Below are positions 3,672-23,636 of a stretch of 64,000 nucleotides of DNA, one piece after another. Source of the stretch: a virus; the IMG/VR virus record IMGVR_UViG_3300046758_000611, positions 106,222-170,221 of that record. One strand, written 5' to 3'. How positions within the stretch are numbered: position 1 is the stretch's first letter; the number at the start of each line of letters is the position of its first letter. Under the pieces are notes generated by a model, which saw nothing but the letters and a program-made list of their open reading frames with translations, made no database searches and was not told the DNA's origin. A program made the translations under genes and the position numbers.

Positions 3672-4525
3672 TTATTTTATCAATACATTTATTTCCATTT
3701 GAAATGAAACGATTCCAACGAATCGTTAATTCAATAAATTTAAATTTAAAATATACGAGATGTGAAGAACTACTCGTTCATGCTACTCTAAATAAAAATT
3801 CTAATATTCTTGAACACGAGTATGATGTTGACGAAGTCTTCATCAATCTTATGAAAACTATAAATTGCGATGTATTTTATGAAATCAAAAACGAAGTAAA
3901 TTTTTTAGGAGTAAATGAACATAGACGAAAAACCATACAACTATCAGACAAAGATGATTACATCATTTATATAGATAGTGATCTTATATTCAACGACAGA
4001 ATACTAGCAAATCAAATTATTGCAATAGATTATTTAAAAAACAAAAATGACTACTTTATAGTAACCCCAAATACAATTAGATTGTGGGATAAAACATGGG
4101 ATATAATTACACATGAAAAGTACCTAACTGAATCATTTGAATTCCACAGAAACGCAAACTTTTACGATATAGTAAATCAAAACTATGGAAAAATATATCT
4201 AGAGAAAATAAACAAATTTAAATGGGGTGGGGGGTGGTTTAATTGTTTTTCAGCAAATCTGCTTAAATTGATAAAAATCCCAACTTCATTTAAAGGTTAT
4301 GGGCCAGATGACACATTTGTCATGGAGTGTTGTAATATATTAAAAAAAGAAGGAGAGAACGTATCACAATATATTATGAAAAACATGATTGTATGTGAGG
4401 ATATAAAAATTGATTCAAAAAAATATTTCAAGAAAAAAACAAAAAATTTCAGAGAATTGTGCAATAAAAACTTTAATAAAGAGTTATCAAATTTTTATAT
4501 TTCTTATAAAAAAGAAATAATTTAA
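3668..4525 (+). CDS. Putative GT-A glycosyltransferase
   Basis: IYIDSDL (DxD) and GYGPDD (GT2/GT7-like GWGxED); ATG at 3668 overlaps upstream stop. Confidence 0.6.
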   Translation: MIILSIHLFPFEMKRFQRIVNSINLNLKYTRCEELLVHATLNKNSNILEHEYDVDEVFINLMKTINCDVFYEIKNEVNFLGVNEHRRKTIQLSDKDDYIIYIDSDLIFNDRILANQIIAIDYLKNKNDYFIVTPNTIRLWDKTWDIITHEKYLTESFEFHRNANFYDIVNQNYGKIYLEKINKFKWGGGWFNCFSANLLKLIKIPTSFKGYGPDDTFVMECCNILKKEGENVSQYIMKNMIVCEDIKIDSKKYFKKKTKNFRELCNKNFNKELSNFYISYKKEII

Positions 4526-4530
4526 TATAT

Positions 4531-5334
4531 ATGTGTATGAAGAAACGGCAAATTTTAACATTTGTGGTGGTGAGTTTAACTTTAACATTTACACAGGGTT
4601 GTGTAACAATTCCCTGGGGGTTGAAAGATGACAGAATTAAAATCAATTCTGACATAGAAAAAAAAGACACAGAACTTAGCCGTCATCTTAAATCTTATGT
4701 AACAGGAACTGTTGAAACACTGTCGTATGTAGATAATAAAAACAAAACACAACAAGTTGCATTAAATTTAGCACAAAAGGCACAAGAAATTGTAGGACTC
4801 CCAGACCCAGGGGACAAAATCAATGTAATTGATGTAATAAACAAAAACGGAGTTGCACTTGAGAACCTAGAAGACAGAAATGCAGATGTAATAAGTTTAT
4901 CTAGGCAAAAACAGGTCCTAGGACATGAACTAAGTGACACAGAAGATAAACTCATAGAACTGGGTGAGGCATCGAGAACAGAAGATAATTTTTTTGCAAA
5001 AGCATGGGGTTGGTTAAAAACTACATTTGGCATATTAGGTGCAATTGCTATATTAATAATTGGAGGTCCTGCAATTTTACCTATTTTGGGGCAAATAATT
5101 GCGTGGGTAGTTACAAAAATACCAGGACTTGTAGGTTGGATGGGTCTTACGAGTTTTTCGTTAACAAAGAATATTATCAAGGGAGTGCATGATGCAAAAG
5201 AAAAAATAAAAATGGCAGACGAAGAACGGAAGTTTTCAAAGAATGAAGTTCTTGACTTATTTAAATCAAATCTTGGCAACTCAACAAACCACTCCGACAA
5301 GAATATAATCAGCAGAATAAAAAGAAAGTTCTAA
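4531..5334 (+). CDS. Lipoprotein with helical region and C-terminal transmembrane segments
   Basis: Basic N-terminus, hydrophobic stretch, TQG-C lipobox; hydrophobic region at about aa 160-210. Confidence 0.6.
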   Translation: MCMKKRQILTFVVVSLTLTFTQGCVTIPWGLKDDRIKINSDIEKKDTELSRHLKSYVTGTVETLSYVDNKNKTQQVALNLAQKAQEIVGLPDPGDKINVIDVINKNGVALENLEDRNADVISLSRQKQVLGHELSDTEDKLIELGEASRTEDNFFAKAWGWLKTTFGILGAIAILIIGGPAILPILGQIIAWVVTKIPGLVGWMGLTSFSLTKNIIKGVHDAKEKIKMADEERKFSKNEVLDLFKSNLGNSTNHSDKNIISRIKRKF

Positions 5335-5960
5335 TGAAAGAAATACTTGTAGAGAATAAAAAATTTAAAGGTGATCCAGAAAAATTTAAAGGAAGTCGTG
5401 ACGATAACGCACTTGGGTTCGGCTGGAGGCCTGGTCAGGAAGAAACAACAATAACTATAAATAATTGCGAAATAGATGCTAACGGAGTAGCAGAGGGTCT
5501 TAAATTAAGTTATTGTAAAAATGTAAAAGTTACCAATTGTACAATAATAGGTGGGTACGAAGATTGCGTAGATATTGTGCGTGGTTCAAATATAGTATTT
5601 CATAAATGTAAGTTTATAGCAAATAACACAAAACATCATTTCACAATAAAGTGTAATGTAGATGGTGTTAAAATAATAGATTGTGAATTTATAAATGAAT
5701 TTAATAATATATTAGATGGTGCTTGCGTTGATTTAGGAAACTGGGGAGATTATGATGTGGACATACTTCCCAAAACAAAGAACATAGAAATTGTAAATTG
5801 CAAATTAACAAATTTTAGAAAATTTAAAAAAATCATAACAAGAAGATTATATGCAGAAACACCGTGTGTAAAAAGTGAAGGGTTTGCACTTAATATTCCA
5901 AAAATCTTTGTTTCTTTGTTTTTTTCATATAAAAGGTTTGAAAGTAAACAAAAAAAATAG
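5334..5960 (+). CDS. Right-handed parallel beta-helix protein (pectate-lyase-like)
   Basis: Repeating NVKVTNCTI / NIVFHKCKF / GVKIIDCEF / NIEIVNCKL rungs; EDCVDI. Confidence 0.7.
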   Translation: MKEILVENKKFKGDPEKFKGSRDDNALGFGWRPGQEETTITINNCEIDANGVAEGLKLSYCKNVKVTNCTIIGGYEDCVDIVRGSNIVFHKCKFIANNTKHHFTIKCNVDGVKIIDCEFINEFNNILDGACVDLGNWGDYDVDILPKTKNIEIVNCKLTNFRKFKKIITRRLYAETPCVKSEGFALNIPKIFVSLFFSYKRFESKQKK

Positions 5961-6022
5961 TTTTCTTTATTATACTTATAAAAAAGGTTATATCGCATTA
6001 TTAAACATGGAGATTGCGTTAT

Positions 6023-6898
6023 ATGAAAATAGGAGTTGTGGGAAATGGGTTTGTGGGTCATGCAATGACATTGCTGAGACCTTATGTGGATGTACTTGTG
6101 TGGGATATAGTTCCAGATAAAAGAGATCCACAAACATTAGATATTGAAACGTTTGTAGAAGAGTCGGAAATAATTTTTGTTGCCGTTCCCACACCAATGA
6201 ATTCAGACGGAAGTGCTAATTTAAATATAGTAAGAGCAGTTTGCGAAGAAATTCAAGCAATTGATGATGAAAAATATATTGTACTTCGTTCTACTGTACC
6301 ACCCGGAACAAGTGAAGAATTAGATGTAGCATTTATGCCAGAGTTTCTTACTGAAAAAAACTGGAAGGATGATTTTAAAAATTGCAATCAATGGATACTT
6401 GGTTCAACCGATCCATTCTTATATGAAAAAATGAAAAGAATGTTTGAACTTGCATATAATGATGGAAATGGTGCGATTGTAAACAAAGAATTAATTCAAT
6501 GCAAACCAAGTGAAGCAGAAATGATAAAATACTTGAAAAATGTATTTTTAAGTGTAAAGGTCGGTTTCTTTAATGAACTTGAATCAATTTGCTCAGAGAT
6601 GGACATTAATTATGAAAATGTTCGTTGTATTGCAACAGAAGACCCTAGAATTGGAAACGGACACACAAAAGTTCCCGGACACGATGGTCTTCGTGGATTT
6701 GGGGGAACGTGTTTTCCAAAAGATACGAATGCACTTGCAAACTTTGCAAATGAAAATTTCGTACCAACTCCTATACTTAATGCAGTTATTAAACGAAACG
6801 AAGAAGTAGACAGACCTGAAAAAGACTGGATGGCAGACAAAGGGAGAGCAGTTTCTGCTGAAGTAAATCCCAACGAAAAGAAGAAAAAGACAACATGA
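6023..6898 (+). CDS. UDP-glucose/GDP-mannose dehydrogenase family (short form lacking C-terminal domain)
   Basis: GxGxVG, VPTP, RSTVPPG, PEFL, GFGGTCFPKD catalytic Cys. Confidence 0.9.
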   Translation: MKIGVVGNGFVGHAMTLLRPYVDVLVWDIVPDKRDPQTLDIETFVEESEIIFVAVPTPMNSDGSANLNIVRAVCEEIQAIDDEKYIVLRSTVPPGTSEELDVAFMPEFLTEKNWKDDFKNCNQWILGSTDPFLYEKMKRMFELAYNDGNGAIVNKELIQCKPSEAEMIKYLKNVFLSVKVGFFNELESICSEMDINYENVRCIATEDPRIGNGHTKVPGHDGLRGFGGTCFPKDTNALANFANENFVPTPILNAVIKRNEEVDRPEKDWMADKGRAVSAEVNPNEKKKKTT

Positions 6899-7851
6899 AA
6901 AACATTGACTTCTTCAATGGAGATGCAGACGGAATAATAAGTCTACATCAGTACCGATTATTCTCACCGACTGATAGTGAATTATTTACTGGTGTTAAAA
7001 GGGATGTTAAACTTTTAAGACATTGCGTTGGGGTTAAAAACTGCAACTTAACGGTATTTGATGTATCACTATTATCTAACATAGAATATGTAAAACAAAT
7101 ATTAAAAAAGAAAAATAAAATAAAATGGTTTGACCATCATGAACCGGGTGAAACAAAGTTAGGAAAAAACTTTTCAATAAAAGTAGACTCCGATCCCAAT
7201 TGTTGTACAAATATATTAGTTGATAAATACATAGACGGGTTACACAGACCCTGGACAATATGTGGTGCGTTTGGAGATAATTTACACGAACAGGCAGAAA
7301 AACTAAATCCTTGTTTTGACGAGCAGACAATGAATAAGTTAAAAGAAATTGGAGAAACACTAAATTACAATGGATACGGAAACAAAGAGTCTGATTTAAC
7401 TGTACACCCAAAAAACGTATACCTTGATTTAAAACAATATGAATCACCGTTTCGTTACAGAAGCAAATCAGAAATATACAATAAAATTTATACACAAATG
7501 AAGTCTGATGAAAAAGAACTAAATTCATCCGAAATTTTACATGAAACAAAAACAGGGAAAGTCATTTTGCTTCCAGACACAAAAGCATCCATTAGGTACT
7601 CTGGTATATACAGTAACCAACAAACAACCGATAATCCCGATAAAGCATTTGCAATTCTTACATTAACAAACAATGATAATTACCGAATAAGCATAAGGTC
7701 ACCAAAAAACAATCCATACGGAGCAAGCAAGTTGGCATTGAGTTTTCCAACAGGAGGTGGTCGTGAAAAAGCAGCCGGTATAAACGAATTACCAAAAACA
7801 GAACTTAAAAAATTTATTGAAACATTTGAAAATATTTATGGAAATGAATAA
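6895..7851 (+). CDS. DHH-family phosphoesterase
   Basis: FNGDADG, FDHH, C-terminal GGGREKAAG (DHHA1). Confidence 0.85.
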   Translation: MKNIDFFNGDADGIISLHQYRLFSPTDSELFTGVKRDVKLLRHCVGVKNCNLTVFDVSLLSNIEYVKQILKKKNKIKWFDHHEPGETKLGKNFSIKVDSDPNCCTNILVDKYIDGLHRPWTICGAFGDNLHEQAEKLNPCFDEQTMNKLKEIGETLNYNGYGNKESDLTVHPKNVYLDLKQYESPFRYRSKSEIYNKIYTQMKSDEKELNSSEILHETKTGKVILLPDTKASIRYSGIYSNQQTTDNPDKAFAILTLTNNDNYRISIRSPKNNPYGASKLALSFPTGGGREKAAGINELPKTELKKFIETFENIYGNE

Positions 7852-7978
7852 ACAAAAAAAAGTATTTATTAAAACAAAAAAACCTAGTATAATATTCCTT
7901 AATAAATCAATAAATTATAAACAACCAACACAAACTGAAATATCTAAACAAGATTTAGCGGATAGGTGGGGATAGATT

Positions 7979-8350
7979 ATGAGAAATCAAGATGAAAGTA
8001 TAAGACCTTGGGGAAATTATGAAATTCTATTAGACGCAGAATACTGCAAAGTCAAACGTATCTTTGTAAAACCAGGACAAAGATTAAGTTATCAATACCA
8101 CCACAAACGACAAGAAGCATGGACGGTTGTTAGTGGTGTTGCGAGAATAACTTTAGACGATGTCACAGAAGATTATAAACCAGGAGAAACGGTTTTAATT
8201 CCTATTGGAGCAAAACACCGCATGGCAAATCCAAGTGGTACAGAAGATATGATTTTAATTGAAGTTCAAACAGGAACTTATTTTGGTGAAGATGATATTG
8301 TCAGAGTCCAAGATGATTATGATCGTCCAGAAAAACACGAATCAAATTAA
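7979..8350 (+). CDS. Mannose-6-phosphate isomerase type II cupin domain
   Basis: RPWG, LSYQYHHKRQEAW, EVQTGTYFGEDDIVR. Confidence 0.9.
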   Translation: MRNQDESIRPWGNYEILLDAEYCKVKRIFVKPGQRLSYQYHHKRQEAWTVVSGVARITLDDVTEDYKPGETVLIPIGAKHRMANPSGTEDMILIEVQTGTYFGEDDIVRVQDDYDRPEKHESN

Positions 8351-8354
8351 AATT

Positions 8355-8762
8355 ATGAAAACCGTAGCAGTTAGTGGATACTTTGACCCAATTCATGTGG
8401 GTCATTTAGAATATCTTGAGTTGGCAAAAAAACTTGGTGATCGTCTTGTTGTTATTGTAAACAACAATCATCAATGTGTTCTTAAAAAAGGCAAACCATT
8501 TATGGATGAAGCAGACCGAGTAAAAATCGTAGAAGCACTCGGAATAGTTGATGAAGTTTTTCTCAGTATCGATGGAGACAAAAGTGTATGTGCTTCTCTT
8601 GATGCAATTAAACCCGACATCTTTGCAAATGGTGGAGATAGAAGCACAGGTGAAGTACCCGAAAGTGTTATTTGCAAAAAGCATGGCATTGAAATGGTCG
8701 ATGGACTTGGTGATAAAATTAGAAGTTCAAGTGATTTGACTGGCTTAAAAGAAAAGAAGTAG
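8355..8762 (+). CDS. Cytidylyl/adenylyltransferase (HxGH family)
   Basis: SGYFDPIHVGH, FANGGDR, KIRSSS; ATG at 8355. Confidence 0.9.
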   Translation: MKTVAVSGYFDPIHVGHLEYLELAKKLGDRLVVIVNNNHQCVLKKGKPFMDEADRVKIVEALGIVDEVFLSIDGDKSVCASLDAIKPDIFANGGDRSTGEVPESVICKKHGIEMVDGLGDKIRSSSDLTGLKEKK

Positions 8763-8781
8763 TTCCTATCTATTTATTTGT

Positions 8782-9687
8782 ATGAATAAAGTCTTGATAA
8801 CGGGTGGTGCTGGTTTTGTTGGAACTGCACTTATACGCAAACTTATACGAAAGTACAAGAATATTCAGATCATCAGCATTGACAATTATAGTAGTGGATT
8901 TGAAAGCAATCATATAAAAAGTAAAAAAGTAACGTATCTTAATAAGGATACTCAAACTTTGATTCCGAAAAAATTTGATGCAAACAATACCAAGATGGAT
9001 ATTGCAGATGCCTTCGAACCAGATGTTGTCTTTCACTTCGGTGAGTTCTCACGAATCGTAACGAGTTTTGATGCGTTTGATAATTGTTGGGACTATAATA
9101 TGCAAGGAACTAAAATGGTTCTTGATTATTGCGTAGCAAAAAAGGCAAAGTTAATTTATAGTGCAAGTTCAAGTAAATTTGGAAACGATGGCAAAGACGA
9201 AAATCTTTCTCCATATGCTTGGATGAAAGCAAAAATGGTTGAACTTATTAAAAACTATTCAGACTGGTTTGATTTAAAATACGAAATAACATACTTTTAC
9301 AATGCGTACGGTCCTGGACAAGTAAGAACAGGAGATTACGCAACCGTGATAGGAATATTCGAAGAGCAATATTCCAAAGGAGAACCACTTACAGTTGTAG
9401 AACCAGGTGAACAATCAAGAGACTTTACCCATGTTGATGATATCGTAAATGGAGTTGTGTTAGCAGCCGTCAAAGGTCAACAATGTGAATATCCACTTGG
9501 AACAGGAATTCCACACAAAATAATTGATGTTGCTAAACTGTTCAATCATAAACATATTATGATACCAGAAAGACGTGGTGAGAGATTCTACGGAAAAGCA
9601 ATTCCATCTCTAACCTACCAACATCTTGGTTGGAACGCAAAAATTAAACTAGAAGATTATATCAAAAAAATAGTTGACGCCAAATAA
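8782..9687 (+). CDS. NAD-dependent nucleotide-sugar epimerase/dehydratase
   Basis: TGGAGFVG, YAWMK (YxxxK), YFYNAYGP, RDFTHVDD. Confidence 0.9.
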   Translation: MNKVLITGGAGFVGTALIRKLIRKYKNIQIISIDNYSSGFESNHIKSKKVTYLNKDTQTLIPKKFDANNTKMDIADAFEPDVVFHFGEFSRIVTSFDAFDNCWDYNMQGTKMVLDYCVAKKAKLIYSASSSKFGNDGKDENLSPYAWMKAKMVELIKNYSDWFDLKYEITYFYNAYGPGQVRTGDYATVIGIFEEQYSKGEPLTVVEPGEQSRDFTHVDDIVNGVVLAAVKGQQCEYPLGTGIPHKIIDVAKLFNHKHIMIPERRGERFYGKAIPSLTYQHLGWNAKIKLEDYIKKIVDAK

Positions 9688-9702
9688 ATTTGTTTATATA
9701 AT
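9674..9702 (+). promoter_or_regulatory. sigma70-like promoter, probably leaderless transcript
   Basis: TTGACG-N17-TATAAT, 6 nt before ATG 9709. Confidence 0.75.
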
Positions 9703-9708
9703 ATATAG

Positions 9709-10995
9709 ATGAATTTTAGAAATGTTGAACTTGAATATCCTAAGCCGTTTCACAACGGAAAGAAGTGGGTCTATGCGGATAGTCCAATTTACGACAACTT
9801 ATTAAATTGCTTTTGGGAAACACAACATCCAGAAGACTCATATAAAGATTCACCTAGATTACGTGATCCGTTTAGAAAAATAAACAATATGACGAATCAG
9901 AAACTTCTTGGTCATAAAGAAGATACATACGAAAAAGTTGATTGGGTGGAAGATGAAAATGGAATTATTCGTGCTTGTATTTTATATTTTGATATTCCAA
10001 AAATGCACTCTAAGAAAAAGAAAATAGTAAGTTTTACAGGTCGTGAAATTACTTTAAGTGCAAATGATGCGTATATTCAAGAAGTTGCTTGCTATCCTGG
10101 TTACGAAGAATGGTTAGGTAAACTAATTAAAAAGCACGAAGCAAAAGGAAACTTCTTTGAAGAAGGAGTTACAGTCATTGAATGTGATATGCAACTCAAA
10201 AGAATTCGTGAACTTCTTGCATCTATTGGTTATACACGAAAAGATAATCTTATCAGCAGTTTCGCAGATATGTATGGATTTTGGTTTAAAGGTGGTGAAT
10301 ACCCACACATAGATCCTGCACAAGAAATTGCCTTACAAAGATTAGCAATGCCGGGTGTTCCAAATCCTAAGAAAATCATGGAACAATTAAATAAAGTAAG
10401 TTCCGAGTTTTCTAATCATTATTCAAATTACAATAAAAGTGATTCGTGGTCAGGAGTAACAGTATCTGGTTATGGAGGCGAATGGGATTTTATTATCAAA
10501 CCAAGTGAAATGAACAACAAGTGGAAAAAGAATAATTCAGAGAAATTAAAATGGAAAGTAGAAGATACTCCACTTCGTGCAAAACTACCTGCCGTAGAAG
10601 AATATTTAAAACTTCTTCCTTATGAATTTGAAAGAATTAGAATTCTTAAACTTGCTGGTGGTGAGGGAGAGTTACAACGACACACAGACCGTCAAGACAA
10701 AGAAGCAGGTATTTCGGACAACCAATGGGCAAGAGTTCATTTTCCAATTCAAACAAATCCAAAAGTACAATTCACACTTTGGAACACAGACGGAACAAAA
10801 ACGGTTGACAAAATGAAAGAAGGAGAATTGTGGTATCTTGATATGAGGAAACCACATACTGCATTTAATGGTGGATCACAGGATCGTTATCATCTGGTTG
10901 TTGATTTAAAAGCAAATCAAAACTTTAGAGATTGGTTGGTTGAAAGTAGCAAGTTGTATCCACCCACCAAAGATGCTGACAATTATATTGAATGA
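9709..10995 (+). CDS. Degenerate GNAT-like N-domain fused to aspartyl/asparaginyl beta-hydroxylase-like 2OG-Fe(II) oxygenase
   Basis: C-terminal HTD...RVHFPIQTNP...PHTAFN...RYHLVVD; N-terminal YIQEVACYP and LASIGY weakly resemble GNAT motifs A/B. Confidence 0.7.
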   Translation: MNFRNVELEYPKPFHNGKKWVYADSPIYDNLLNCFWETQHPEDSYKDSPRLRDPFRKINNMTNQKLLGHKEDTYEKVDWVEDENGIIRACILYFDIPKMHSKKKKIVSFTGREITLSANDAYIQEVACYPGYEEWLGKLIKKHEAKGNFFEEGVTVIECDMQLKRIRELLASIGYTRKDNLISSFADMYGFWFKGGEYPHIDPAQEIALQRLAMPGVPNPKKIMEQLNKVSSEFSNHYSNYNKSDSWSGVTVSGYGGEWDFIIKPSEMNNKWKKNNSEKLKWKVEDTPLRAKLPAVEEYLKLLPYEFERIRILKLAGGEGELQRHTDRQDKEAGISDNQWARVHFPIQTNPKVQFTLWNTDGTKTVDKMKEGELWYLDMRKPHTAFNGGSQDRYHLVVDLKANQNFRDWLVESSKLYPPTKDADNYIE

Positions 10996-11462
10996 AAATT
11001 TCAGAAGAACGACTGCAAACTATGTATGAGTTAGCAGGTTTAAATAAACAAACTCTACATGATGCTCTTCGTATCATGGGAAAAAAGCATCTTAAAACAA
11101 AGTTGATGAAAGAAGGATGGACACACGACAATCCAACTAAAAACTATTGTTATGTAATTGCAGAATTTGTTTATTATTATTTATCACCAAGAGGGTCTAA
11201 ACCATATAAGTTACCTGGCATACCAGGAGACGATGGATTGCATCGTTTTATTATGTGGCCAGATTATTCTGTTGTGGATTTGGCAGTTGACCAATTTCCT
11301 AATTTTGAAGATGTAGATTATACAAAAGCAAAAATATGCTATTTTATGGTAAATACATTCGGAGTACCTGGACCATCAAAACGAACAAGAATTTTAGCAG
11401 AACTCATGGGATATGAGTTATCAGAAGAACGAGCAATTAAAGTAAATACAAAATCATGGTAA
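10992..11462 (+). CDS. Hypothetical protein
   Basis: Overlaps both neighbours; NYCYV..E, H, DLAVDQF could be a Cys-His-Asp triad. Confidence 0.6.
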   Translation: MKISEERLQTMYELAGLNKQTLHDALRIMGKKHLKTKLMKEGWTHDNPTKNYCYVIAEFVYYYLSPRGSKPYKLPGIPGDDGLHRFIMWPDYSVVDLAVDQFPNFEDVDYTKAKICYFMVNTFGVPGPSKRTRILAELMGYELSEERAIKVNTKSW

Positions 11463-12283
11463 TGTTATCAAAATTTATAGAATCAGTATACGAAGACAAC
11501 ACAGGTAATATGTGGAGTGAAGATCAATTGTTAAATTTGGTTAAAGATTGGGAAGACCCAAATCCAAAACCTATTATTATGAACTACGAAGGAATTGATG
11601 TGGTTAGAGATGATCTTCTAAATCACGGTAGTAAAATTCGTTTCGTAGATAAACTTATTCGTGAAACTTCTGCAAAAGAAATTGTATTTGGGTGTTGCCC
11701 TGCAACAGGTTATGCACAAATATCTTTACCAGCAGTTGCACAGAAATACAACAAAAAAGTTGTATTGTTTATGGCAAAACGCAATCCAGAAAACTATCAT
11801 GAATATCAAAAAAGAGGAATGGACTTGGGTGCTATATACGAGTGGGTAAATATGGGAATGTTATCAGTTACAAAATCAAGAGCAAAAAAATATGTAGCAG
11901 AGGACCCAGAAAATAGAATGGAATTTCCAATCGGATTAGAACACCCAACGGTTGTAGCAAGTATTATTAAAGTTGCAAGAAATGCTTTATCCGAAAATCC
12001 ACCAAGTGAAATTTGGAGTGTTGGATCAAGTGGAACAATTAGTCGTGGTTTACAACTTGCTTTTCCTGAGATACCTGTTAATGTAGTATCTGTTGGACAC
12101 AAAATGAACGAAAGAGAAATAGGACGAGCAAAATATTACAGATCAGAATATCAGTTTGATAAGGCAATAAAGGAAAATGAAATGCCACCATTTCCATCTG
12201 CCCCAACATATGATGCCAAAGCATGGAAGTTTGTAAAAGAACACGCAAAAGAAGGTGCTTTGTTTTGGAATGTAGGTGCATAA
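11456..12283 (+). CDS. PLP-dependent enzyme, fold type II (ACC deaminase/D-cysteine desulfhydrase-like)
   Basis: VVRDDLL..GSKIR (Schiff-base Lys), SVGSSGT phosphate loop, YDAKAW. Confidence 0.8.
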   Translation: MVMLSKFIESVYEDNTGNMWSEDQLLNLVKDWEDPNPKPIIMNYEGIDVVRDDLLNHGSKIRFVDKLIRETSAKEIVFGCCPATGYAQISLPAVAQKYNKKVVLFMAKRNPENYHEYQKRGMDLGAIYEWVNMGMLSVTKSRAKKYVAEDPENRMEFPIGLEHPTVVASIIKVARNALSENPPSEIWSVGSSGTISRGLQLAFPEIPVNVVSVGHKMNEREIGRAKYYRSEYQFDKAIKENEMPPFPSAPTYDAKAWKFVKEHAKEGALFWNVGA

Positions 12284-12284
12284 T

Positions 12285-13874
12285 ATGAAAAAATACTTTT
12301 ATGAAAAAAACAATCTTGCGGAATGTAGAGTCAATATAACATTCCACGAACTTCTTCAAAAGAATGGAAAAGAATTAGAAGAGTGGATTGATGAACTTAG
12401 AAACTATATTGTTGAAACTTGGGATAACGAAGGTCTTCCTCCGAGAACTGGTAAAAACGAAAAAGACATCATAGCAAATTTAAATAAGTTATCAGGATAT
12501 AATGTATATAAGTTTCAACACACAGACGAAATGGACGGAACAAATACCATCATTAAAAACTTTAATAAGTTCGCAACTGTGGTTGATCAGTTTTTTCCAA
12601 CGATGCTTAAAACTAAAATAGGTTCTAGTAAGCATACATCTTGGAGTGTATATGATTGCTTTGCTAATCCAGAGAAACGAGAAAGTTTCCACACTTGTAT
12701 GAGAAGAACGGTCCGACGAGATTCATTTTATGCTCACGGAAGAACAATCAAGAAAAATGATTATGATGTTCCGTGTCCAACTGAAAACGCAGAAGAGTGG
12801 GTTCGTAATTTTGTCAAAGAGAAACATCTACATCCATATAACGACTTTTGGATTATTGAGTTGTTTACAGAAAAAAAGTTTGATTCATATGAAGCAAGCA
12901 GTTTAATGTTAACGGCAAAGCAAATCAAGAAATTATACAAAGAAGGTTTGCTTAAATTAAACAACATTAGAAATTTAGAAAGAACTGCAAACTTCGGTGA
13001 CGATATAGAAAATATAAATGATGTAATTATCGAAGACGAAAAAGAAGTACAATTCAAATTCAGTATTCGTTACTACAACAAGAACTCAAGAATCTTTCCG
13101 TCAGCAATGGAAGCATTTAAACTTGGTCTTAGTCAACCAGCAGTAAACTTTCCTCCGTTGACTGCAAAGTATATTTATCAGACGTACACAGATCACATTC
13201 AAGATAAAAGCAATCTTCATATATATGATCCAAGTGCAGGTTGGGGTGGACGTATTCTAGGTGCTATGTCAGTACACGATAGACAAATTCATTATATAGG
13301 AACTGATCCAAACACAGACAATTATATAGATGAACTAAATCAAAGTCGTTATGAATATCTTGCCGACTTCTTTAATGACAAAACAAACGGAGGTAATCCG
13401 TTCTTTGGTCATCGTAACACTTACGATGTTTATCAGAATGGAAGTGAAGAAATTCACAAGAATCCGAGTTTTCAAAAATACAAAGGTAAACTTGATTTGG
13501 TTTTTACAAGTCCACCATATTTTAATCGTGAACAATATTCAGCAGATGAATCTCAGAGTTTCAAAAAGTTTCCAGAGTATGAAGATTGGAGAGACAACTT
13601 TCTTCGTCCTACTTTGAAGACGGCTGCCGAGTATTTGAAGAACGATAGATATCTACTTTGGAATATCGCAGACATCGCAGACGGAGACGGATTTATGCCA
13701 TTAGAAAAAGATAGTCGTGATATTCTTGCGGAATATGGACTTGAGTATGTTGAAACTCTTAAAATGCTTATGACAACAATGCGTGGTGTTAAAGCAGAAA
13801 CGGTTAAGAATTGTTGCAAGATAAACGGAGAGTTGCAAAAGTATGAACCTATCTTTGTGTTTTACAAGAAGTAA
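12285..13874 (+). CDS. SAM-dependent amino-DNA methyltransferase-like protein
   Basis: YDPSAGWGGR (motif I), FTSPPYF (motif IV). Confidence 0.8.
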   Translation: MKKYFYEKNNLAECRVNITFHELLQKNGKELEEWIDELRNYIVETWDNEGLPPRTGKNEKDIIANLNKLSGYNVYKFQHTDEMDGTNTIIKNFNKFATVVDQFFPTMLKTKIGSSKHTSWSVYDCFANPEKRESFHTCMRRTVRRDSFYAHGRTIKKNDYDVPCPTENAEEWVRNFVKEKHLHPYNDFWIIELFTEKKFDSYEASSLMLTAKQIKKLYKEGLLKLNNIRNLERTANFGDDIENINDVIIEDEKEVQFKFSIRYYNKNSRIFPSAMEAFKLGLSQPAVNFPPLTAKYIYQTYTDHIQDKSNLHIYDPSAGWGGRILGAMSVHDRQIHYIGTDPNTDNYIDELNQSRYEYLADFFNDKTNGGNPFFGHRNTYDVYQNGSEEIHKNPSFQKYKGKLDLVFTSPPYFNREQYSADESQSFKKFPEYEDWRDNFLRPTLKTAAEYLKNDRYLLWNIADIADGDGFMPLEKDSRDILAEYGLEYVETLKMLMTTMRGVKAETVKNCCKINGELQKYEPIFVFYKK

Positions 13875-15620
13875 TTAAATAGAACTTGAAAAATCTACTC
13901 GGTCTACATCAACTCCGAAAAATTTCATAAGTAGTCTAATTGCTTTTTTACCTTGTGCTACTATAAAGTCAAATGCAGCGGATATAGCATCTGACACCCA
14001 TTTCCATGCTTTTTTCAAAACTTCCATAGTTGAATCTTTAAGTTTCTTGAATCCACCTTTTACGTTATCGACACCCTTTTTTAATAAATCAGTTGCATCA
14101 CTAAAAAAACCTTCACACATCAATAACCTAAGAGAGTTAAACAATTCCATTTCATTTAGATTTTGGAAATTTTCATTTAATACTTTATTTCCACCATCCA
14201 CTTTATTAAATGCTTCTTTCATGATTGTAGAAAACGTTGGTATATATTTTACTCCATCCTTTTCCTCGGCAAGTCGGTTCACGGCAGACTCAGCTGCTTT
14301 CTTTGCAGTATCAGCTGCTTTCATAATATTACCACGCAGAGCAATATATGGAGTTGATCCAGAACCTGTTTTAAACGAAGCATAAAAGTGACACTTTGAT
14401 GTCAAATCACTTAATCCTGCTTCGATATCAAAATACTTAGTAACTTTACCAGAGGGAGGATCAAATTCTACAATCGTATCAGCACGTGAATCAGATGCAG
14501 TACCGAACTTAACATCACCCGAAGCAGCCTCAAACACAAATGCTTCTTTTAATTTAGGATTACTACTAAACTCTTGATTCAGATTCAACGTAATTACATT
14601 TCCTGCCTGTGTTGCATCTTCAACATCTTTTATTTGGTTTTGCATATCTTCAAGTTCTTTTAAAGCTTGTGGTGATCCATCGTCTTTTAGTTTTTTTACT
14701 TTATCTTTGAATGCATCAATCGTTCCTTTATATCCTGATTTGCTTGTATCAAGCACCCCCGTTTTCAAAGTATTAAAAACTTTTTTTAGTTCTGAACTTT
14801 CGTTTTCCCCAAATTTTTGGAAAGCAACCTCAAGTGTAGCAAATGCTTCAATTCTTTTGGCACTCATAATTTGAGAACCACCTTTCTTTTTCAATGAAAT
14901 TCGTTGACCACGATCACCCTTAACATCAGTTTTGGGAGTTTTACTTGGTTTATCTTTTTTACCTGCATCTGTGAATATTTTTGACCACTCGGAACTAACA
15001 GGAGCACCCCCCTTTCCACCTCCAATTTGTTGTAAAGCTCCTATTCCCTCTTTAAGAAATGCGTCTGCGAGGTTATTTGCCTGATCTCTAAGACCAGCCG
15101 AACCCCAAAATCCTTTATCGTTAATGCGTTTCCATTCATCTGCATATTCACCACTTGATAAATCTGCATTTTTGTTTTTCTTAAACGCAAGAGCAACTGC
15201 AATCATTGCTTCCCAATCTTCACCAGAAGGTTTCTTTGCACCCTTTACGGTTGACAGATCATTGAATGCTTTTCCTATGTATGCAGGAACTACACCGAAC
15301 AGTTGATTTATCTTTCCTTTTTTATTACCCCAATCAACCAGATCATCTTTGTTGTTTGCTTTTAAAAGTTCTGCTTTCATTTGTTTCCACAACTTTTTAT
15401 CTTTAATCTTTAACTTTTTGTTTTTGTTATCTCTAAGATCATTTGAATCTACTTTTGAAATAAACATTTTCTTGTTATCTCTATGAGAATCAATAGTAAA
15501 CAGAGTTGCCAATCCACCAAGACCACCATTTTTATCAGATGCTTCGTTTAGTAACTCGGCAAAATCTGTCGGAATCTCAACCAAAGATGAATTCTTTATA
15601 TAATGCTCTATAATGTCCAC
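13875..15620 (-). CDS. Hypothetical large protein, possibly virion internal protein
   Basis: 581 aa ORF; Lys/Gly-rich; LLNEA, NLNEM, MCEGFF motifs; ATATATTTATT before GTG. Confidence 0.6.
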   Translation of the reverse strand: MDIIEHYIKNSSLVEIPTDFAELLNEASDKNGGLGGLATLFTIDSHRDNKKMFISKVDSNDLRDNKNKKLKIKDKKLWKQMKAELLKANNKDDLVDWGNKKGKINQLFGVVPAYIGKAFNDLSTVKGAKKPSGEDWEAMIAVALAFKKNKNADLSSGEYADEWKRINDKGFWGSAGLRDQANNLADAFLKEGIGALQQIGGGKGGAPVSSEWSKIFTDAGKKDKPSKTPKTDVKGDRGQRISLKKKGGSQIMSAKRIEAFATLEVAFQKFGENESSELKKVFNTLKTGVLDTSKSGYKGTIDAFKDKVKKLKDDGSPQALKELEDMQNQIKDVEDATQAGNVITLNLNQEFSSNPKLKEAFVFEAASGDVKFGTASDSRADTIVEFDPPSGKVTKYFDIEAGLSDLTSKCHFYASFKTGSGSTPYIALRGNIMKAADTAKKAAESAVNRLAEEKDGVKYIPTFSTIMKEAFNKVDGGNKVLNENFQNLNEMELFNSLRLLMCEGFFSDATDLLKKGVDNVKGGFKKLKDSTMEVLKKAWKWVSDAISAAFDFIVAQGKKAIRLLMKFFGVDVDRVDFSSSI

Positions 15621-15646
15621 GACAATAAATATATATCAAAGTAGAT

Positions 15647-17203
15647 TTATTGTATTCTTTCGGGATAATCTGTAAATACACCATTTACACCCAACTCACG
15701 CAAATATCTAATAGCACGAAGTTCATTCACGGTATATACATATATTTTCATGTTATTTTCATTACAATACTCAACGATGGGTGGTGTAATATCTTCTATA
15801 TACAAATTTACAGAATATATATTTTTTTCAAAGTAGTCTTTCTTAAAATTCTTTATGTCTCTCAGTATGACATTATCTTCGTGAAATAATTGGGACACAT
15901 TAATATCGGAATCACTTCGTCTTATCAAATTGACGGTTGCACAACTAAACGAACTTAATACAATATCAACATTCCTCCATTGTTTCTTTTTTTGATAATC
16001 TCTAACAATAGCAACAATATTAGTTGCAATGCTACTATCCTTAACTTCAATATTAACACCACACCTTCCATCTATGCAATCCAATGCTTGTTGCAAAGTG
16101 GGAATTCTTTCACAATTAGCATAAATTAATTTATCAAATTCATGTGATTCCAAATCACTCATTTTTTTATCTACACCAAACATTCTATTTGCATTGTAAT
16201 CGTGAAATACACACATTTTCCTATCAATATATTGAACATCAAATTCAATCATATCACAATTATATTCAATTGCTTTTTCAAACGCAGAAAGTGTATTTTC
16301 AGTGCAAGTGCCACTTGCCCCACGATGAGCAATATTAACAAACTTATACTCTTCTATTTCCGAAAAAAATTGTTTTATTTTACAAAACACACTACATTCT
16401 AACCCCTTGTCATAAATTGTAAGATGTGTATTTAATTTTGTTGTATATAATTTTTTGTATGTTGATGCAATCTTTTTGAAAGCACGAACACCACTACTAT
16501 AAAAGACAGTAGGATCATTATATTCTTGTATTTGAAACACAGGACACAGAATTCTATCTAATATAGTTTTAGAAACATTAGACATTTTACGAAGTTCATT
16601 TGTTGCGGACAAATTAATTAGTGGTTGATTTAGTTCAGGCATCTCACTATGATTCGTAATACACTCAAGCATTATTTTTTGTAGATTAAATTTCTTACAA
16701 ATTTTATTGTAAATCATGACACCTGGTAAAAGTTTATTGAATACATTTTTAACCCCAAACGGGCAATTAATTAAAACCATACCCGCAAATCTTACATCTT
16801 TTAAAGTAGACACATAAGCACCCACACAACCACCAAGTGAAAATCCTATAAAGTAAACTTTATCACACTCATTAGAAACTTTTTCATATTTACTTTTTAC
16901 GTCATCTACCCAATCATTCCAAGTCACTTTTGTAATATTATCAGAATCGTATCCGTGACCACGCAATTCAACAAGATGAGTATCCCATCCGAAATTTTCA
17001 AAAACAAAATCACTAAGAGGGACCATTTGTTCGTGCTTTGATAAAAAACCATGACACAAAATAACCCCAACTTTTTGAGTTGAGGTTTTTTTGACCTTCT
17101 TTGATGAAATGCTTTTTTGCATTTCATTTTCCATGCACATATTGTTGTGTTTGCAACTTATTGGATATTTACATTCTTTTTTTGTGCATTTTTGTGATTC
17201 CAT
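15647..17203 (-). CDS. Alpha/beta hydrolase (lipase/carboxylesterase) fused to glycerophosphodiester phosphodiesterase
   Basis: HGF, LRGHG, GFSLGG, DPTV and H in N-half; AHRGASG..ENTL, EFDVQ, HD, NIEVK, VYTVN, GVFTDYP in C-half. Confidence 0.9.
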   Translation of the reverse strand: MESQKCTKKECKYPISCKHNNMCMENEMQKSISSKKVKKTSTQKVGVILCHGFLSKHEQMVPLSDFVFENFGWDTHLVELRGHGYDSDNITKVTWNDWVDDVKSKYEKVSNECDKVYFIGFSLGGCVGAYVSTLKDVRFAGMVLINCPFGVKNVFNKLLPGVMIYNKICKKFNLQKIMLECITNHSEMPELNQPLINLSATNELRKMSNVSKTILDRILCPVFQIQEYNDPTVFYSSGVRAFKKIASTYKKLYTTKLNTHLTIYDKGLECSVFCKIKQFFSEIEEYKFVNIAHRGASGTCTENTLSAFEKAIEYNCDMIEFDVQYIDRKMCVFHDYNANRMFGVDKKMSDLESHEFDKLIYANCERIPTLQQALDCIDGRCGVNIEVKDSSIATNIVAIVRDYQKKKQWRNVDIVLSSFSCATVNLIRRSDSDINVSQLFHEDNVILRDIKNFKKDYFEKNIYSVNLYIEDITPPIVEYCNENNMKIYVYTVNELRAIRYLRELGVNGVFTDYPERIQ

Positions 17204-17574: not shown

Positions 17575-17904
17575 TTATAAAAACTGACTTTTCTTCCAAC
17601 TTTCTGAGCTTTCTATGTTGATACAAATATCTGCGTTTTCGTAAAAGTTAATTGTAAGTTCATCTCCACATTTAACATCATTGATAGTAAACATATGCAA
17701 ATCTTTGCCGACAATTTTATTTATACAATTATTAGTATTGCTATGATTCTGAAAATTACCAACATCGGTTGCTTCACCAACAACAACTTTGTGGTTAATC
17801 AATCCAATTCCTATATGACTTAAACCAATATCAGTATTTGCTTTTATATTCTCGGTAGCAATTAAACCGTGTCCGTGAATATAAGATTCACTCAGTTTAA
17901 ACAT
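17575..17904 (-). CDS. SET-domain protein (putative lysine methyltransferase)
   Basis: SYIHGHGLIATENI, NFQNHS..NNC, DVKCGDELTINF. Confidence 0.85.
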   Translation of the reverse strand: MFKLSESYIHGHGLIATENIKANTDIGLSHIGIGLINHKVVVGEATDVGNFQNHSNTNNCINKIVGKDLHMFTINDVKCGDELTINFYENADICINIESSESWKKSQFL

Positions 17905-19062: not shown

Positions 19063-19138
<76 letters not shown>

Positions 19139-22415: not shown

Positions 22416-23636
22416 GTGCAACTTTCCGACCACTTTAAAAAGTTCTACAACATGAAACCATATCTTCTTATTGAAGAGGAAGAGTGGAAGAGCATAATTC
22501 AAACGTATGAAAAAGAAGATGTTGTAGAAGAATTGGCAAAAGTTTTGCACACCTATCCTGTTCCGTTACCTGAGATTACCGAAAAGCAAACTCTTGATAG
22601 TTTAAATAAGTTAAAAGGAATAAAGCATAATGATGTGCTTGTAGAAAAAAGATGGTTTCCTCGTAACGAAAGAAAAAGTAATTATCATTTAAACTATAAA
22701 GGTTCTCAGTATCTATTAAAAAGAAACAATTCAGGTAATAATGCTTCTAATCCATTTCATGTAGAAACTCGTTGGAAAGTAGATTGGACAAGAACACCAA
22801 GTGGTTGGAAAACTTGGCAAACAGTCAATGGAATCAAAACAATCGTTCGTGCTTATTGGACATTAGATAAAGTTCTCAATCGTGTTGATGTAAATACTCT
22901 TCGGGTAGCTACAACTCTTCGTAAGTATGTCGCATCGCAATTCAAACCAGCAGTTGCAAAAGCATTTTACGATCACTTTCAAAGCAAGAACGTATTAGAC
23001 TTTAGTGCAGGTTGGGGAGATAGATTAGCAGGATTTTATACAGGTGAAACCACAGAGCATTATGTGGGAATTGATCCCAATACACTTAACCACCCCAATT
23101 ATCAAAAGCAAATTCAGTTCTATGAAAAGTATTCTACATTTTTTGAACAAGATAGAAAAGCAGACTTAATAGAAAGTCCTGCCGAAGATGTAGATTATTC
23201 CCAATATGACAATTACTTTGATACGGTGTTTACAAGTCCACCTTATTTTAATACAGAAAAGTATTCAGACGATGATACGCAATCTTGGGTGAGATATAAA
23301 AAGATAGATGACTGGAATGAGAGATTTCTTCACACTACACTTGGTAAAATAATTCCGACAATAAAAAAGAATGGTATTCTTGCGGTAAACATAGCAGATG
23401 TATTTAATGCTCCTATCAATGACTATGTTGAAATTACGAACCCGATGAACGACTTTATTAAATCAAAGGGTCTTGAATATATTGGTTGCATTGGAATGGA
23501 AATGACGAAACGATTTAATTCAGGTGGTGCGGGTAATGCCAAGAGTGAATATTTTTCGGAAGACCTAAAAGAAATAACCGAGGAGACTAAAGATATTGCG
23601 TTTGCAGAACCTATTTGGACTTGGAAAAAGGTTTGA
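22416..23636 (+). CDS. SAM-dependent amino-DNA methyltransferase-like protein (paralog of 12285-13874)
   Basis: LDFSAGWGDR, GIDPN, FTSPPYF, NIAD, EPIW. Confidence 0.8.
   Translation: MQLSDHFKKFYNMKPYLLIEEEEWKSIIQTYEKEDVVEELAKVLHTYPVPLPEITEKQTLDSLNKLKGIKHNDVLVEKRWFPRNERKSNYHLNYKGSQYLLKRNNSGNNASNPFHVETRWKVDWTRTPSGWKTWQTVNGIKTIVRAYWTLDKVLNRVDVNTLRVATTLRKYVASQFKPAVAKAFYDHFQSKNVLDFSAGWGDRLAGFYTGETTEHYVGIDPNTLNHPNYQKQIQFYEKYSTFFEQDRKADLIESPAEDVDYSQYDNYFDTVFTSPPYFNTEKYSDDDTQSWVRYKKIDDWNERFLHTTLGKIIPTIKKNGILAVNIADVFNAPINDYVEITNPMNDFIKSKGLEYIGCIGMEMTKRFNSGGAGNAKSEYFSEDLKEITEETKDIAFAEPIWTWKKV

What the first reader, a model, noticed from the sequence alone, without database searches (positions are those of the whole stretch)
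9674..13874. Candidate DNA base-hypermodification operon: GNAT-like/2OG oxygenase, unknown protein, PLP enzyme and SAM transferase
Seen: one promoter precedes four abutting or overlapping genes: a two-domain protein with an Asp/Asn-hydroxylase-type 2OG-Fe(II) domain, a 156-aa unknown, a fold-type-II PLP enzyme and a 530-aa SPPY methyltransferase-like protein. Known: phage thymidine-hypermodification pathways use PLP-dependent decarboxylases and acetyltransferases on amino-acid-derived base adducts, and some SAM-dependent Rossmann enzymes transfer aminocarboxypropyl rather than methyl. Inference: the SAM enzyme installs a group that is then decarboxylated or deaminated, hydroxylated and perhaps acylated. 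No 5hmU kinase or amino acid:DNA transferase is visible in this window, so the route may differ from described ones. The GNAT call is weak.
Basis: partly seen in the sequence, partly recalled or inferred. Interest (0 to 1): 0.72.

Follow-up and report, generated by a model that had tools for sequence, protein, structure and literature searches.

The report
Methylase-led phage DNA hypermodification gene set
A marine T4-like phage carries four tightly packed genes that other phages weld into single proteins. They are a methylase-type enzyme, a vitamin-B6 enzyme related to one proven to trim amino acids hanging on phage DNA, a hydroxylase and a small thiol-type protein. Together they probably build an undescribed, larger-than-methyl decoration on DNA bases.

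Summary
Four co-directional, overlapping or abutting genes lie at 9709-13874, behind a strong sigma-70-like match:
- a two-domain 2OG/Fe(II) hydroxylase (PF05118; HxD...H...R invariant)
- a 156-aa YunG-like Cys/His/Asp protein
- a fold-type-II PLP enzyme
- a 529-aa SPPY amino-methyltransferase-fold protein

They form one system. They co-occur in most of 80 IMG/VR loci, usually inside the T4-type replication block (gp46 to gp45). They also occur naturally fused as MT-2OG-PALP, MT-PALP, 2OG-YunG-PALP and ParB-MT-PALP-2OG.

The PLP enzyme is a full-length homologue of Pseudomonas phage M6 gp52 (hhalign 97.8%). M6 gp52 is a proven decarboxylase of amino acids attached to DNA bases. The record (84% complete) has no dUMP hydroxymethylase, amino-acid:DNA transferase or TET.

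My best reading is as follows:
1. The methylase-fold enzyme puts an amino-acid-bearing group on a base's exocyclic amine. This is most likely the 3-amino-3-carboxypropyl (acp) group of SAM.
2. The PLP enzyme decarboxylates that group.
3. The oxygenase hydroxylates it.

The chemistry, the target base and the order of steps are inferred. The GNAT call is unsupported. I found no paper describing the module. This scan has already reported the same module on at least 16 other genomes, with the same reading.

The parts
9674..9702 (+). Sigma-70-like promoter match TTGACG-17-TATAAT, directly before gene 1
   Evidence: 11 of 12 positions, the best in 5500-16000. Both hexamers are invariant in L005-L008 while spacer bases vary. 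The -35 lies inside the epimerase coding end. Function is not shown.
9709..10995 (+). P0001: an N-terminal domain of unknown function (residues 1 to about 196) plus an Asp/Arg-hydroxylase-type 2OG/Fe(II) oxygenase domain (about 230-401)
   Evidence: PF05118, 38.8 bits against a cut-off of 22.6. H325-x-D327, H383 and R393 are invariant in 22 sequences. The nearest solved relatives by profile are L-proline cis-4-hydroxylase 4p7w (E 1e-11), a beta-hydroxylase 7v4f and proline 3-hydroxylase 1e5r. The N-terminal domain has only 326 relatives among 1.84 billion representatives; every listed hit long enough to judge carries it ahead of a further C-terminal region or inside a long fusion.
10992..11462 (+). 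P0002: small YunG-like protein with invariant Cys53, His84 and Asp96; an accessory member
   Evidence: All 10 family members match PF24585 YunG (best E 3e-6; P0002 itself 16 bits, under the cut-off of 27). Atlas neighbours are YunG-like. It is present in 11 of 26 full-context loci. It is fused between the 2OG and PLP domains in P0253.
11456..12283 (+). P0003: fold-type-II PLP enzyme of the phage M6 gp52 / ViI gp226 kind
   Evidence: Model pLDDT 90.6. Foldseek hits 1j0a and D-Cys desulfhydrase. K60, GSSGT 190-194 and Y252-D253-x-K255 are invariant. phrog_7093, E 7e-40. hhalign to M6 gp52: 97.8%, E 1e-12, 221 columns, with gp52's SKIR lysine (the gp52 K36 named in PMC8989533) on K60. hhalign to Bordetella phage CN1: 97.4%.
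12285..13874 (+). P0004: a conserved N-terminal region (about 290 aa, no known fold found) plus a class I SAM-binding amino-methyltransferase-fold domain with an SPPY motif. The ORF is open from GTG 12276.
   Evidence: Invariant D318-P-S-x-G-W-G-G-R (motif I), D344 (motif II) and F410-T-S-P-P-Y-F (motif IV). PF01555: 23 bits, under the cut-off of 26.7. Model pLDDT 83.5. Best structural matches are the m2G tRNA methyltransferases Trm11 (Z 15.2), TrmN and Trm14. phrog_498 'DNA methyltransferase', E 5e-11.
22416..23636 (+). Paralogue of the P0004 transferase domain (406 aa) with a different N-terminal region. It may be a second transferase of the system; membership is not shown.
   Evidence: hhalign against the P0004 family: 99.8%, E 2e-27. 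It has DFSAGWGDR and VFTSPPYF motifs. Several related loci also carry two MT-type genes.

Best explanation
This is a phage-encoded, post-replicative DNA base hypermodification module that does not use the known 5-hydroxymethyl-pyrimidine route.

Step 1 (inferred): P0004 is a SAM-binding enzyme of the exocyclic-amine methyltransferase type (SPPY). It binds DNA and transfers an amino-acid-bearing group to the amino nitrogen of a base (N6-A, N4-C or N2-G). The group is most likely the 3-amino-3-carboxypropyl (acp) moiety of SAM rather than its methyl group.

Step 2 (inferred from homology to M6 gp52 / ViI gp226): the PLP enzyme P0003 forms a Schiff base with the free alpha-amine of that side chain and decarboxylates it. 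This leaves an aminopropyl-type cationic side chain.

Step 3 (inferred): the 2OG/Fe(II) oxygenase domain of P0001 is closest to amino-acid side-chain hydroxylases. It hydroxylates a carbon of the side chain, before or after decarboxylation.

P0002 (YunG-like, Cys/His/Asp) and the N-terminal domain of P0001 are accessory parts of unknown role.

The likely purpose is protection of phage DNA from host nucleases.

Shown here: the four parts form one system, and each has an intact catalytic signature. Not shown: the donor, the target base, the order of steps and the product.
For: Linkage:
- Of 26 non-redundant IMG/VR loci with at least 4 kb on both sides of the PLP gene, 23 have the oxygenase, 21 have the full-length MT-type gene and 20 have all three. 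Gene orders vary.

Fusions:
- MT-2OG-PALP, 1057-1191 aa, eight clusters.
- MT-PALP, 537-689 aa.
- 2OG-YunG-PALP, 794 aa.
- PALP-MT.
- ParB_N-MT-PALP-2OG, 1177 aa.
- Erythrobacter phage R6L gp1 has the PLP domain just upstream of the C-terminal (motif IV) half of a P0004-type MT domain.
- A Bauldia MAG has a 702-aa MT-PALP protein.
- Mycobacterium phage AlanGrant has the pair gp1 (MT-like) and gp2 (PALP).

DNA link:
- P0003 is homologous along its full length to M6 gp52. M6 gp52 and ViI gp226 decarboxylate amino acid-nucleobase conjugates in polymeric DNA, and ViI gp226 was templated on 1j0a (PMC8989533). 1j0a is also P0003's top fold match.
- The oxygenase's homologue in Mycobacterium phage LilMcDreamy follows ParB, a weak Tet_JBP match and an amino-acid:DNA transferase. 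That is the cluster type described in PMC13229309.
- In most relatives the module sits between gp46/gp47 and gp45/gp44/gp62/regA/gp43.

No known installer:
- PF00303, PF18724 and PF12851 are absent from the record.
- The core is MT plus PALP alone in several phages, so the MT-fold enzyme must supply a side chain with a free alpha-amino acid. Among the groups SAM can donate, only acp has one (established chemistry; TYW2 is the precedent).
- The oxygenase profile is nearest to free amino-acid hydroxylases.
Against: - No chemistry was measured.
- P0004 keeps every canonical methyltransferase motif, so plain methyl transfer cannot be excluded from sequence.
- M6 gp52 is only about 30% identical over the hhalign alignment, so the reaction type could differ.
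- The closest structural matches of P0004 are tRNA m2G methyltransferases, which leaves an RNA target open.
- The record has no MTA nucleosidase and no SAM decarboxylase, so no SAM-salvage support.
- Three of the 26 full-context loci have the PLP gene without an MT-type gene nearby.
- The record is 84% complete, so the absence of the thymidine machinery is not proven.
Confidence: 0.6

Rival explanations
1. The enzymes are the same but the installer chemistry differs. The PLP enzyme makes an aminoacrylate from serine, O-acetylserine or O-phosphoserine, as cysteine synthase and SbnA do. The methylase-fold protein only flips the base and presents its exocyclic amine as the nucleophile. The product is an alanyl-type adduct.
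For: Fold-type-II PLP enzymes are mostly beta-replacement or elimination enzymes (hit list). The PLP domain sits directly beside the SPPY half of the MT domain in R6L gp1, which would suit hand-over of a reactive intermediate.
Against: The SAM-binding motifs I and II of P0004 are invariant across the family, which is unexpected for a SAM-independent scaffold. The nearest characterised relatives of P0003 are decarboxylases that act on DNA (PMC8989533).
Confidence: 0.1
2. A methyl-first route. P0004 makes m6A or m4C. The oxygenase hydroxylates the N-methyl to a carbinolamine. The PLP enzyme then couples an amino acid to it. This mirrors the 5mC to 5hmC logic.
For: All three conserved enzymes would be used in a single order. 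P0004 has every methyltransferase motif.
Against: The oxygenase is dispensable. MT-PALP fusions and MT+PALP loci lack it. Its nearest solved relatives hydroxylate amino-acid carbons, not N-methyl groups.
Confidence: 0.08
3. The target is RNA (phage or host tRNA/rRNA), not DNA. This would be an acp-type tRNA hypermodification like wybutosine (TYW2 acp transfer, TYW5 hydroxylation).
For: The best structural matches of P0004 are Trm11, TrmN and Trm14. JGI names some fusions 'TrmN6'. The window carries eight tRNA genes.
Against: A ParB_N domain is fused to the system. The module sits in the DNA replication block. The PLP enzyme's characterised relatives act on DNA. PHROG and Pfam matches are to DNA methylases.
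Confidence: 0.1
4. There is no joint pathway. P0004 is an ordinary orphan DNA methyltransferase beside unrelated auxiliary metabolic genes, or the genes belong to the upstream sugar/polysaccharide block.
For: The operon directly follows a nucleotide-sugar gene block with only a 21-nt gap. One distant locus has a glycosyltransferase next to the PLP gene.
Against: Multiple independent fusion architectures join all four parts. The sugar genes accompany the module only in the closest relatives L005-L009.
Confidence: 0.04

Closest known systems
Thymidine hypermodification pathways of Pseudomonas phage M6 and Salmonella phage ViI (Lee et al., NAR 2021, PMC8989533)
   Same: Post-replicative tailoring of an amino-acid-derived side chain on a DNA base. 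P0003 is a full-length homologue of the PLP decarboxylase M6 gp52. The two share the lysine and a C-terminal motif PFP..P.YD.KAWK..FWN.
   Different: No dUMP hydroxymethylase or amino-acid:DNA transferase was found in the record; the 5-hmdU DNA kinase was not searched for. No radical SAM gene is present. The conserved partner is instead an SPPY amino-methyltransferase-fold enzyme, so the installer, and probably the target atom (an exocyclic amine rather than C5-methyl), differ.
ParB-dependent T-dioxygenase hypermodification clusters (PNAS 2026, PMC13229309), for example the left end of Mycobacterium phage LilMcDreamy
   Same: A homologue of the P0001 hydroxylase (28% identity, E 3e-20) lies in a cluster with ParB, a weak Tet_JBP match and an amino-acid:DNA transferase. 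ParB_N is fused to the MT-PALP-2OG system in P0387.
   Different: This window and its record have no TET/JBP enzyme or AADT. The hydroxylase here belongs to the Asp/Arg-hydroxylase/cupin kind, not the TET/JBP kind.
Wybutosine side-chain synthesis in tRNA (TYW2 acp transferase, TYW5 JmjC hydroxylase); from my own knowledge, not tested here
   Same: A class I methyltransferase-fold enzyme that transfers acp from SAM, followed by 2OG-dependent hydroxylation of that side chain. This is the closest precedent for the proposed steps 1 and 3.
   Different: The substrate there is tRNA and the acceptor is a carbon of a tricyclic base. No PLP enzyme takes part. No sequence-level membership is shown (PH0793/TYW2 was only one of many generic fold hits).
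ACC deaminase / D-cysteine desulfhydrase branch of fold-type-II PLP enzymes (1j0a, 4d8t)
   Same: Best fold match. The family signature around the lysine (RDDL...K.R) and the C-terminal Y-x-x-K motif are recognisable.
   Different: P0003 is shorter (275 against about 325-340 aa). The branch's C-terminal Y-T-G-K (1j0a and 4d8t) reads Y252-D253-A-K255 in P0003, with D253 invariant. The family occurs almost only in viruses.

Membership tests
Fold-type-II PLP enzymes (PF00291 PALP) | Tryptophan-synthase-beta-like two-domain fold | tested here: met
   AlphaFold model pLDDT 90.6. Foldseek hit to 1j0a: TM 0.75, E 7e-11. Further hits are D-Cys desulfhydrase, TrpB and threonine deaminase.
Fold-type-II PLP enzymes (PF00291 PALP) | Schiff-base lysine and glycine-rich phosphate loop | tested here: met
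   K60 and G190-S-S-G-T are invariant or nearly so in 20 sequences. K60 aligns with the SKIR lysine of M6 gp52, which PMC8989533 names K36. The same signature aligns AlanGrant gp2 with 1j0a.
Fold-type-II PLP enzymes (PF00291 PALP) | Pfam gathering score | tested here: not met
   P0003 gives no Pfam hit at E 0.01. Relatives reach it: R6L gp1 40.6 bits, Mae-JY30 46.3 bits, AlanGrant gp2 40.6 bits, against a cut-off of 35.
Phage DNA amino-acid decarboxylases (M6 gp52 / ViI gp226) | Sequence homology over the whole protein | tested here: met
   hhalign to M6 gp52: 97.8%, E 1e-12, 221 columns. hhalign to the CN1 orthologue: 97.4%. phrog_7093, E 7e-40.
Phage DNA amino-acid decarboxylases (M6 gp52 / ViI gp226) | Gene context with 5-hmdU kinase and amino-acid:DNA transferase | tested here: not met
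   PF18724 and PF00303 are absent from the 84%-complete record. Neighbours are MT-type and 2OG genes instead. The kinase was not searched for.
Phage DNA amino-acid decarboxylases (M6 gp52 / ViI gp226) | Decarboxylation of an amino acid attached to a base in DNA | not testable with these tools
   Needs enzyme assays and nucleoside LC-MS.
Exocyclic-amine (N6/N4/N2) SAM methyltransferases | Class I Rossmann fold with motif I and motif IV (D/N/S)PP(Y/F) | tested here: met
   DPSxGWGGR, D344 and FTSPPYF are invariant. Trm11 Z 15.2, then TrmN, Trm14, METTL5 and PrmC.
Exocyclic-amine (N6/N4/N2) SAM methyltransferases | Pfam PF01555 gathering score | tested here: not met
   23.0 bits against a cut-off of 26.7, covering motif IV only. 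Many homologues carry a precomputed PF01555 hit.
Exocyclic-amine (N6/N4/N2) SAM methyltransferases | Transfer of methyl (and not another SAM substituent) | not testable with these tools
   Needs an SAH-versus-MTA product assay.
Asp/Arg beta-hydroxylase-type 2OG/Fe(II) oxygenases (PF05118) | Pfam score and the HxD...H iron triad with the 2OG-binding Arg | tested here: met
   38.8 bits against a cut-off of 22.6. All 22 family members match. H325, D327, H383 and R393 are invariant and align with the H-x-D, distal His and Arg positions of 4p7w.
GNAT acetyltransferases (N-terminal domain of P0001) | Detectable GNAT sequence signature | tested here: not met
   No GNAT Pfam hit in 22 members at E 0.1. 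One weak Atlas neighbour. The profile search finds only 326 relatives, none of them long enough to judge without the downstream region or a fusion. The fold was not predicted here, so a GNAT-like fold is not excluded. A separate weak GNAT match lies upstream of this domain in P0333.
YunG (PF24585) | Pfam match | tested here: inconclusive
   P0002 itself scores 16 bits, under the cut-off of 27. All 10 family members match, best E 3e-6. Atlas neighbours carry YunG or Phage_YunG-like.

The most novel reading that the evidence does not exclude
The module makes the first known SAM-derived aminocarboxypropyl or (hydroxy)aminopropyl modification on the exocyclic amine of a DNA base. A methyltransferase-fold enzyme would install it directly on polymeric DNA. 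This would be a hypermodification route independent of 5-hydroxymethylpyrimidines, and it is widespread in marine T4-like phages.
Probability: 0.35. Interest if true: 0.9.

Novelty: new variant of a known kind. Interest (0 to 1): 0.74.

Why it matters
The enzymatically reconstituted amino-acid-derived DNA hypermodifications I found in the literature searched here start from 5-hydroxymethyl-pyrimidines or a related C5 handle. This module would install the side chain through a methyltransferase-fold enzyme instead.

If so, it would add a new class of DNA chemistry. It would extend the substrate range of the amino-methyltransferase fold and of the M6 gp52-type PLP enzymes. It would also explain a gene set found in hundreds of uncultured aquatic T4-like phages (416 IMG/VR stretches).

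It is directly testable in three cultured phages that carry the core pair. If confirmed, it could yield tools for site-specific DNA labelling with primary amines.

Tried and rejected
- Direct PDB sequence searches with P0003 and P0004 gave nothing useful. A profile of the P0003 family against PDB gave only a chance-level hit.
- blastn of the operon against cultured phages gave no match.
- P0002 has no tblastn match in cultured phages.
- Complex prediction of P0004 with P0003 gave 'no answer' (score 0.00). This is not evidence either way.
Gene context came from IMG/VR loci instead.
- Six literature searches found no description of an MT-PALP-2OG module or of acp/aminopropyl DNA bases; a seventh turned up only the related TET/ParB papers.
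- GNAT for the P0001 N-terminal domain has no sequence support.
- SAM-salvage genes (MTA nucleosidase, SAM decarboxylase) are absent from the record.
- Bacterial and archaeal species genomes yielded only 8 loci, all in MAGs, so there is no cellular context to learn from.
- Public runs holding the stretch are seawater metagenomes kept as contigs only. Read-level signs of modification could not be looked for, and read laying was not used.
- The 245-aa gene before the MT paralogue is unrelated to the module.
- The N-terminal 290 aa of P0004 found no structural match in the whole-model searches. It was not folded alone.


Full report
**Setting.** The window is the last 64 kb of a single 170,221-bp IMG/VR virus record, which CheckV rates 84% complete. 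It carries a family B DNA polymerase 47% identical to that of Microcystis phage Mel-JY01, with weaker matches to T4-like cyanophage gp43. It also has eight tRNA genes, an HNH endonuclease and several DNA methylases. Near-identical DNA occurs in seawater metagenomes from many studies. This is an uncultured marine T4-like phage.

**Observation.** Four co-directional ORFs lie at 9709-10995, 10992-11462, 11456-12283 and 12276-13874.
- The first two junctions overlap by 4 and 7 nt.
- The fourth gene most likely starts at ATG 12285, two bases after the stop of gene 3 and behind an AGGTG. Its homologues are 529 aa and start at the same residues.
- The best sigma-70-like match in 10.5 kb, TTGACG-17-TATAAT, lies at 9674-9702. 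Its hexamers are kept in relatives whose spacer differs.
- Such matches are no more frequent than in shuffled sequence. The -10 ends 6 nt before the ATG, and the preceding epimerase gene ends only 21 nt upstream. The promoter is therefore plausible, not shown.

**The parts.**
- *P0001* has a PF05118 domain above threshold with invariant H325-x-D327, H383 and R393.
  - A profile of the family is nearest to L-proline cis-4-hydroxylase, a beta-hydroxylase and proline 3-hydroxylase among solved structures. These are enzymes that hydroxylate amino-acid carbons.
  - Its N-terminal domain of about 195 aa is confined to this protein family: 326 relatives among 1.84 billion representatives.
  - That domain shows no GNAT signature.
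- *P0002* belongs to a small family whose members all match Pfam YunG. It has invariant Cys53, His84 and Asp96.
- *P0003* has no Pfam hit of its own. Its model (pLDDT 90.6) is a fold-type-II PLP enzyme closest to the ACC-deaminase homologue 1j0a and to D-cysteine desulfhydrase. It has an invariant lysine (K60), a GSSGT loop and a Y-D-x-K motif.
- *P0004* has invariant motif I (DPSxGWGGR), motif II (D344) and motif IV (FTSPPYF).
  - Its model (pLDDT 83.5) is a class I methyltransferase closest to the m2G tRNA methyltransferases Trm11, TrmN and Trm14. This is the exocyclic-amine class.
  - Its first 290 residues are conserved but matched nothing.

**One system.** A profile of the PLP enzyme found 416 coding stretches in IMG/VR.
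- In the 80 loci fetched, the oxygenase and the MT-type gene accompany it in several gene orders.
- Among 26 non-redundant loci with at least 4 kb on both sides, 23, 21 and 20 have the oxygenase, the full MT gene, and both.
- In most relatives the module sits inside the T4 replication and recombination block: uvsY, uvsW, gp47, gp46, then the module, then gp45, gp44, gp62, regA, gp43.
- The sugar genes that precede it here accompany it only in the closest relatives.
- Natural fusions join every part:
  - MT-2OG-PALP, eight clusters, 1057-1191 aa
  - MT-PALP, 537-689 aa
  - 2OG-YunG-PALP, 794 aa, in the same order as this operon
  - PALP-MT
- A 1177-aa protein runs ParB_N, MT, PALP, then the P0001-type two-domain hydroxylase.
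- In cultured phages:
  - Erythrobacter phage R6L gp1 carries the PLP domain immediately before the motif-IV half of a P0004-type domain.
  - Mycobacterium phage AlanGrant has the MT-like gp1 next to the PALP gp2.
  - Microcystis phage Mae-JY30 has an MT-type gene next to the PLP gene.
- In prokaryote species genomes the family is nearly absent: 8 loci, all in MAGs.

**Link to DNA hypermodification.**
- The more distant cultured-phage relatives of P0003 are the 'threonine dehydratases' of Bordetella phages and Pseudanabaena phage Pam3. These lie in M6-type thymidine hypermodification clusters.
- M6 gp52 itself aligns with the P0003 family over 221 columns (hhalign 97.8%, E 1e-12). The SKIR lysine of gp52 (named K36 in PMC8989533) falls on K60, and the two share a C-terminal motif.
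- Lee et al. showed that M6 gp52 and ViI gp226 are PLP-dependent decarboxylases acting on amino acid-nucleobase conjugates in polymeric DNA. They modelled ViI gp226 on 1j0a (PMC8989533).
- The P0001 hydroxylase has a homologue in Mycobacterium phage LilMcDreamy. That homologue directly follows a ParB-like gene, a weak Tet_JBP match and an amino-acid:DNA transferase. This is the cluster type described for ParB-dependent T-dioxygenases (PMC13229309).
- This record has no thymidylate-synthase/hydroxymethylase family member, no amino-acid:DNA transferase and no TET/JBP enzyme.

**Mechanism.**
- The conserved core is the MT-fold enzyme plus the PLP enzyme.
- A PLP enzyme of the gp52 kind needs a side chain with a free alpha-amino acid. 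No other installer is present.
- Of the groups SAM can donate, only 3-amino-3-carboxypropyl carries one. TYW2 is a class I methyltransferase-fold precedent; this rests on my own knowledge.
- I therefore propose three steps: acp transfer to an exocyclic amine, decarboxylation to an aminopropyl-type chain, and hydroxylation by the amino-acid-hydroxylase-like oxygenase. TYW5 is a precedent for hydroxylation of an acp chain.
- Decarboxylation of SAM first, followed by aminopropyl transfer, would give the same product.
- All of this is inference. I give the general reading (one undescribed DNA hypermodification pathway) about 0.75, and the acp chemistry about 0.35.

**Rivals.** The alternatives are an aminoacrylate route, a methyl-then-hydroxymethyl route, an RNA target, and no joint pathway. 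They are weighed in their own section. The fusions all but exclude the last, and the dispensability of the oxygenase argues against the methyl-first route.

**Novelty and earlier work.** None of seven full-text literature searches turned up a description of this module or of such bases. After I had reached the reading above, look-ups showed that this scan has reported the same module on at least 16 other genomes, with the same closest-known system. Those are unchecked AI notes that agree with my independent tests.

New points here:
- the 2OG-YunG-PALP and ParB_N-containing fusions
- the amino-acid-hydroxylase affinity of the oxygenase
- a second P0004-type paralogue at 22416-23636

**Limits.** The complex prediction gave no answer. 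Only contigs, not reads, were available for the sequencing runs.

Noticed in passing
window 22416-23636 (+): A 406-aa paralogue of the P0004 transferase domain (DFSAGWGDR, VFTSPPYF; hhalign 99.8%) with a different N-terminal region, 8.5 kb downstream of the operon. Some related loci also carry two MT-type genes.
   Followed up: partly
window 3-9687 (+): A block of nucleotide-sugar and glycosyltransferase genes: GT1, GT2, a beta-helix protein, UDP-glucose dehydrogenase, a DHH-phosphoesterase-like protein, an M6P-isomerase-type cupin, a cytidylyltransferase and an NAD epimerase. It directly precedes the operon and is linked to the module only in the closest relatives.
   Followed up: partly
window 13875-15620 (-): A 581-aa protein with no family, convergent with the operon and abutting its stop. 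It is hypervariable (100%, 30% and 41% identity) among relatives whose flanking genes are 90-99% identical.
   Followed up: no
window 15647-17203 (-): A fusion of an alpha/beta-hydrolase with a glycerophosphodiester phosphodiesterase (GDPD) in a phage.
   Followed up: no
window 17575-17904 (-) and 19063-19828 (-): A 109-aa SET-domain protein next to an array of eight tRNA genes (Ala, Ser x2, Glu, Asn, Pro, Thr, Cys). An HNH endonuclease follows at 19960-20568.
   Followed up: no
window 25941-30767 (+): A family B DNA polymerase followed directly by two N6_N4 DNA methylases (28448-29344 and 29268-30767). With P0004 and its paralogue, the record has five genes matching PF01555, six matches in all.
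   Followed up: no
protein P0261 (metagenome, 1055 aa): An MT-PALP fusion that also carries a strong PCIF1_WW domain (E 2e-35). This domain is known from the eukaryotic cap m6Am methyltransferase PCIF1.
   Followed up: no
protein P0333 (metagenome, 521 aa): A weak GNAT (Acetyltransf_10, E 6.5e-4, under the cut-off) match lies upstream of the P0001-type N-terminal domain and hydroxylase. An acetyltransferase may be an occasional extra part of the system.
   Followed up: no
loci L010-L026, gene after the PLP gene: A conserved protein of about 258 aa with a weak HD-domain match follows the PLP gene in one clade of relatives. It is absent next to the operon in this window.
   Followed up: no
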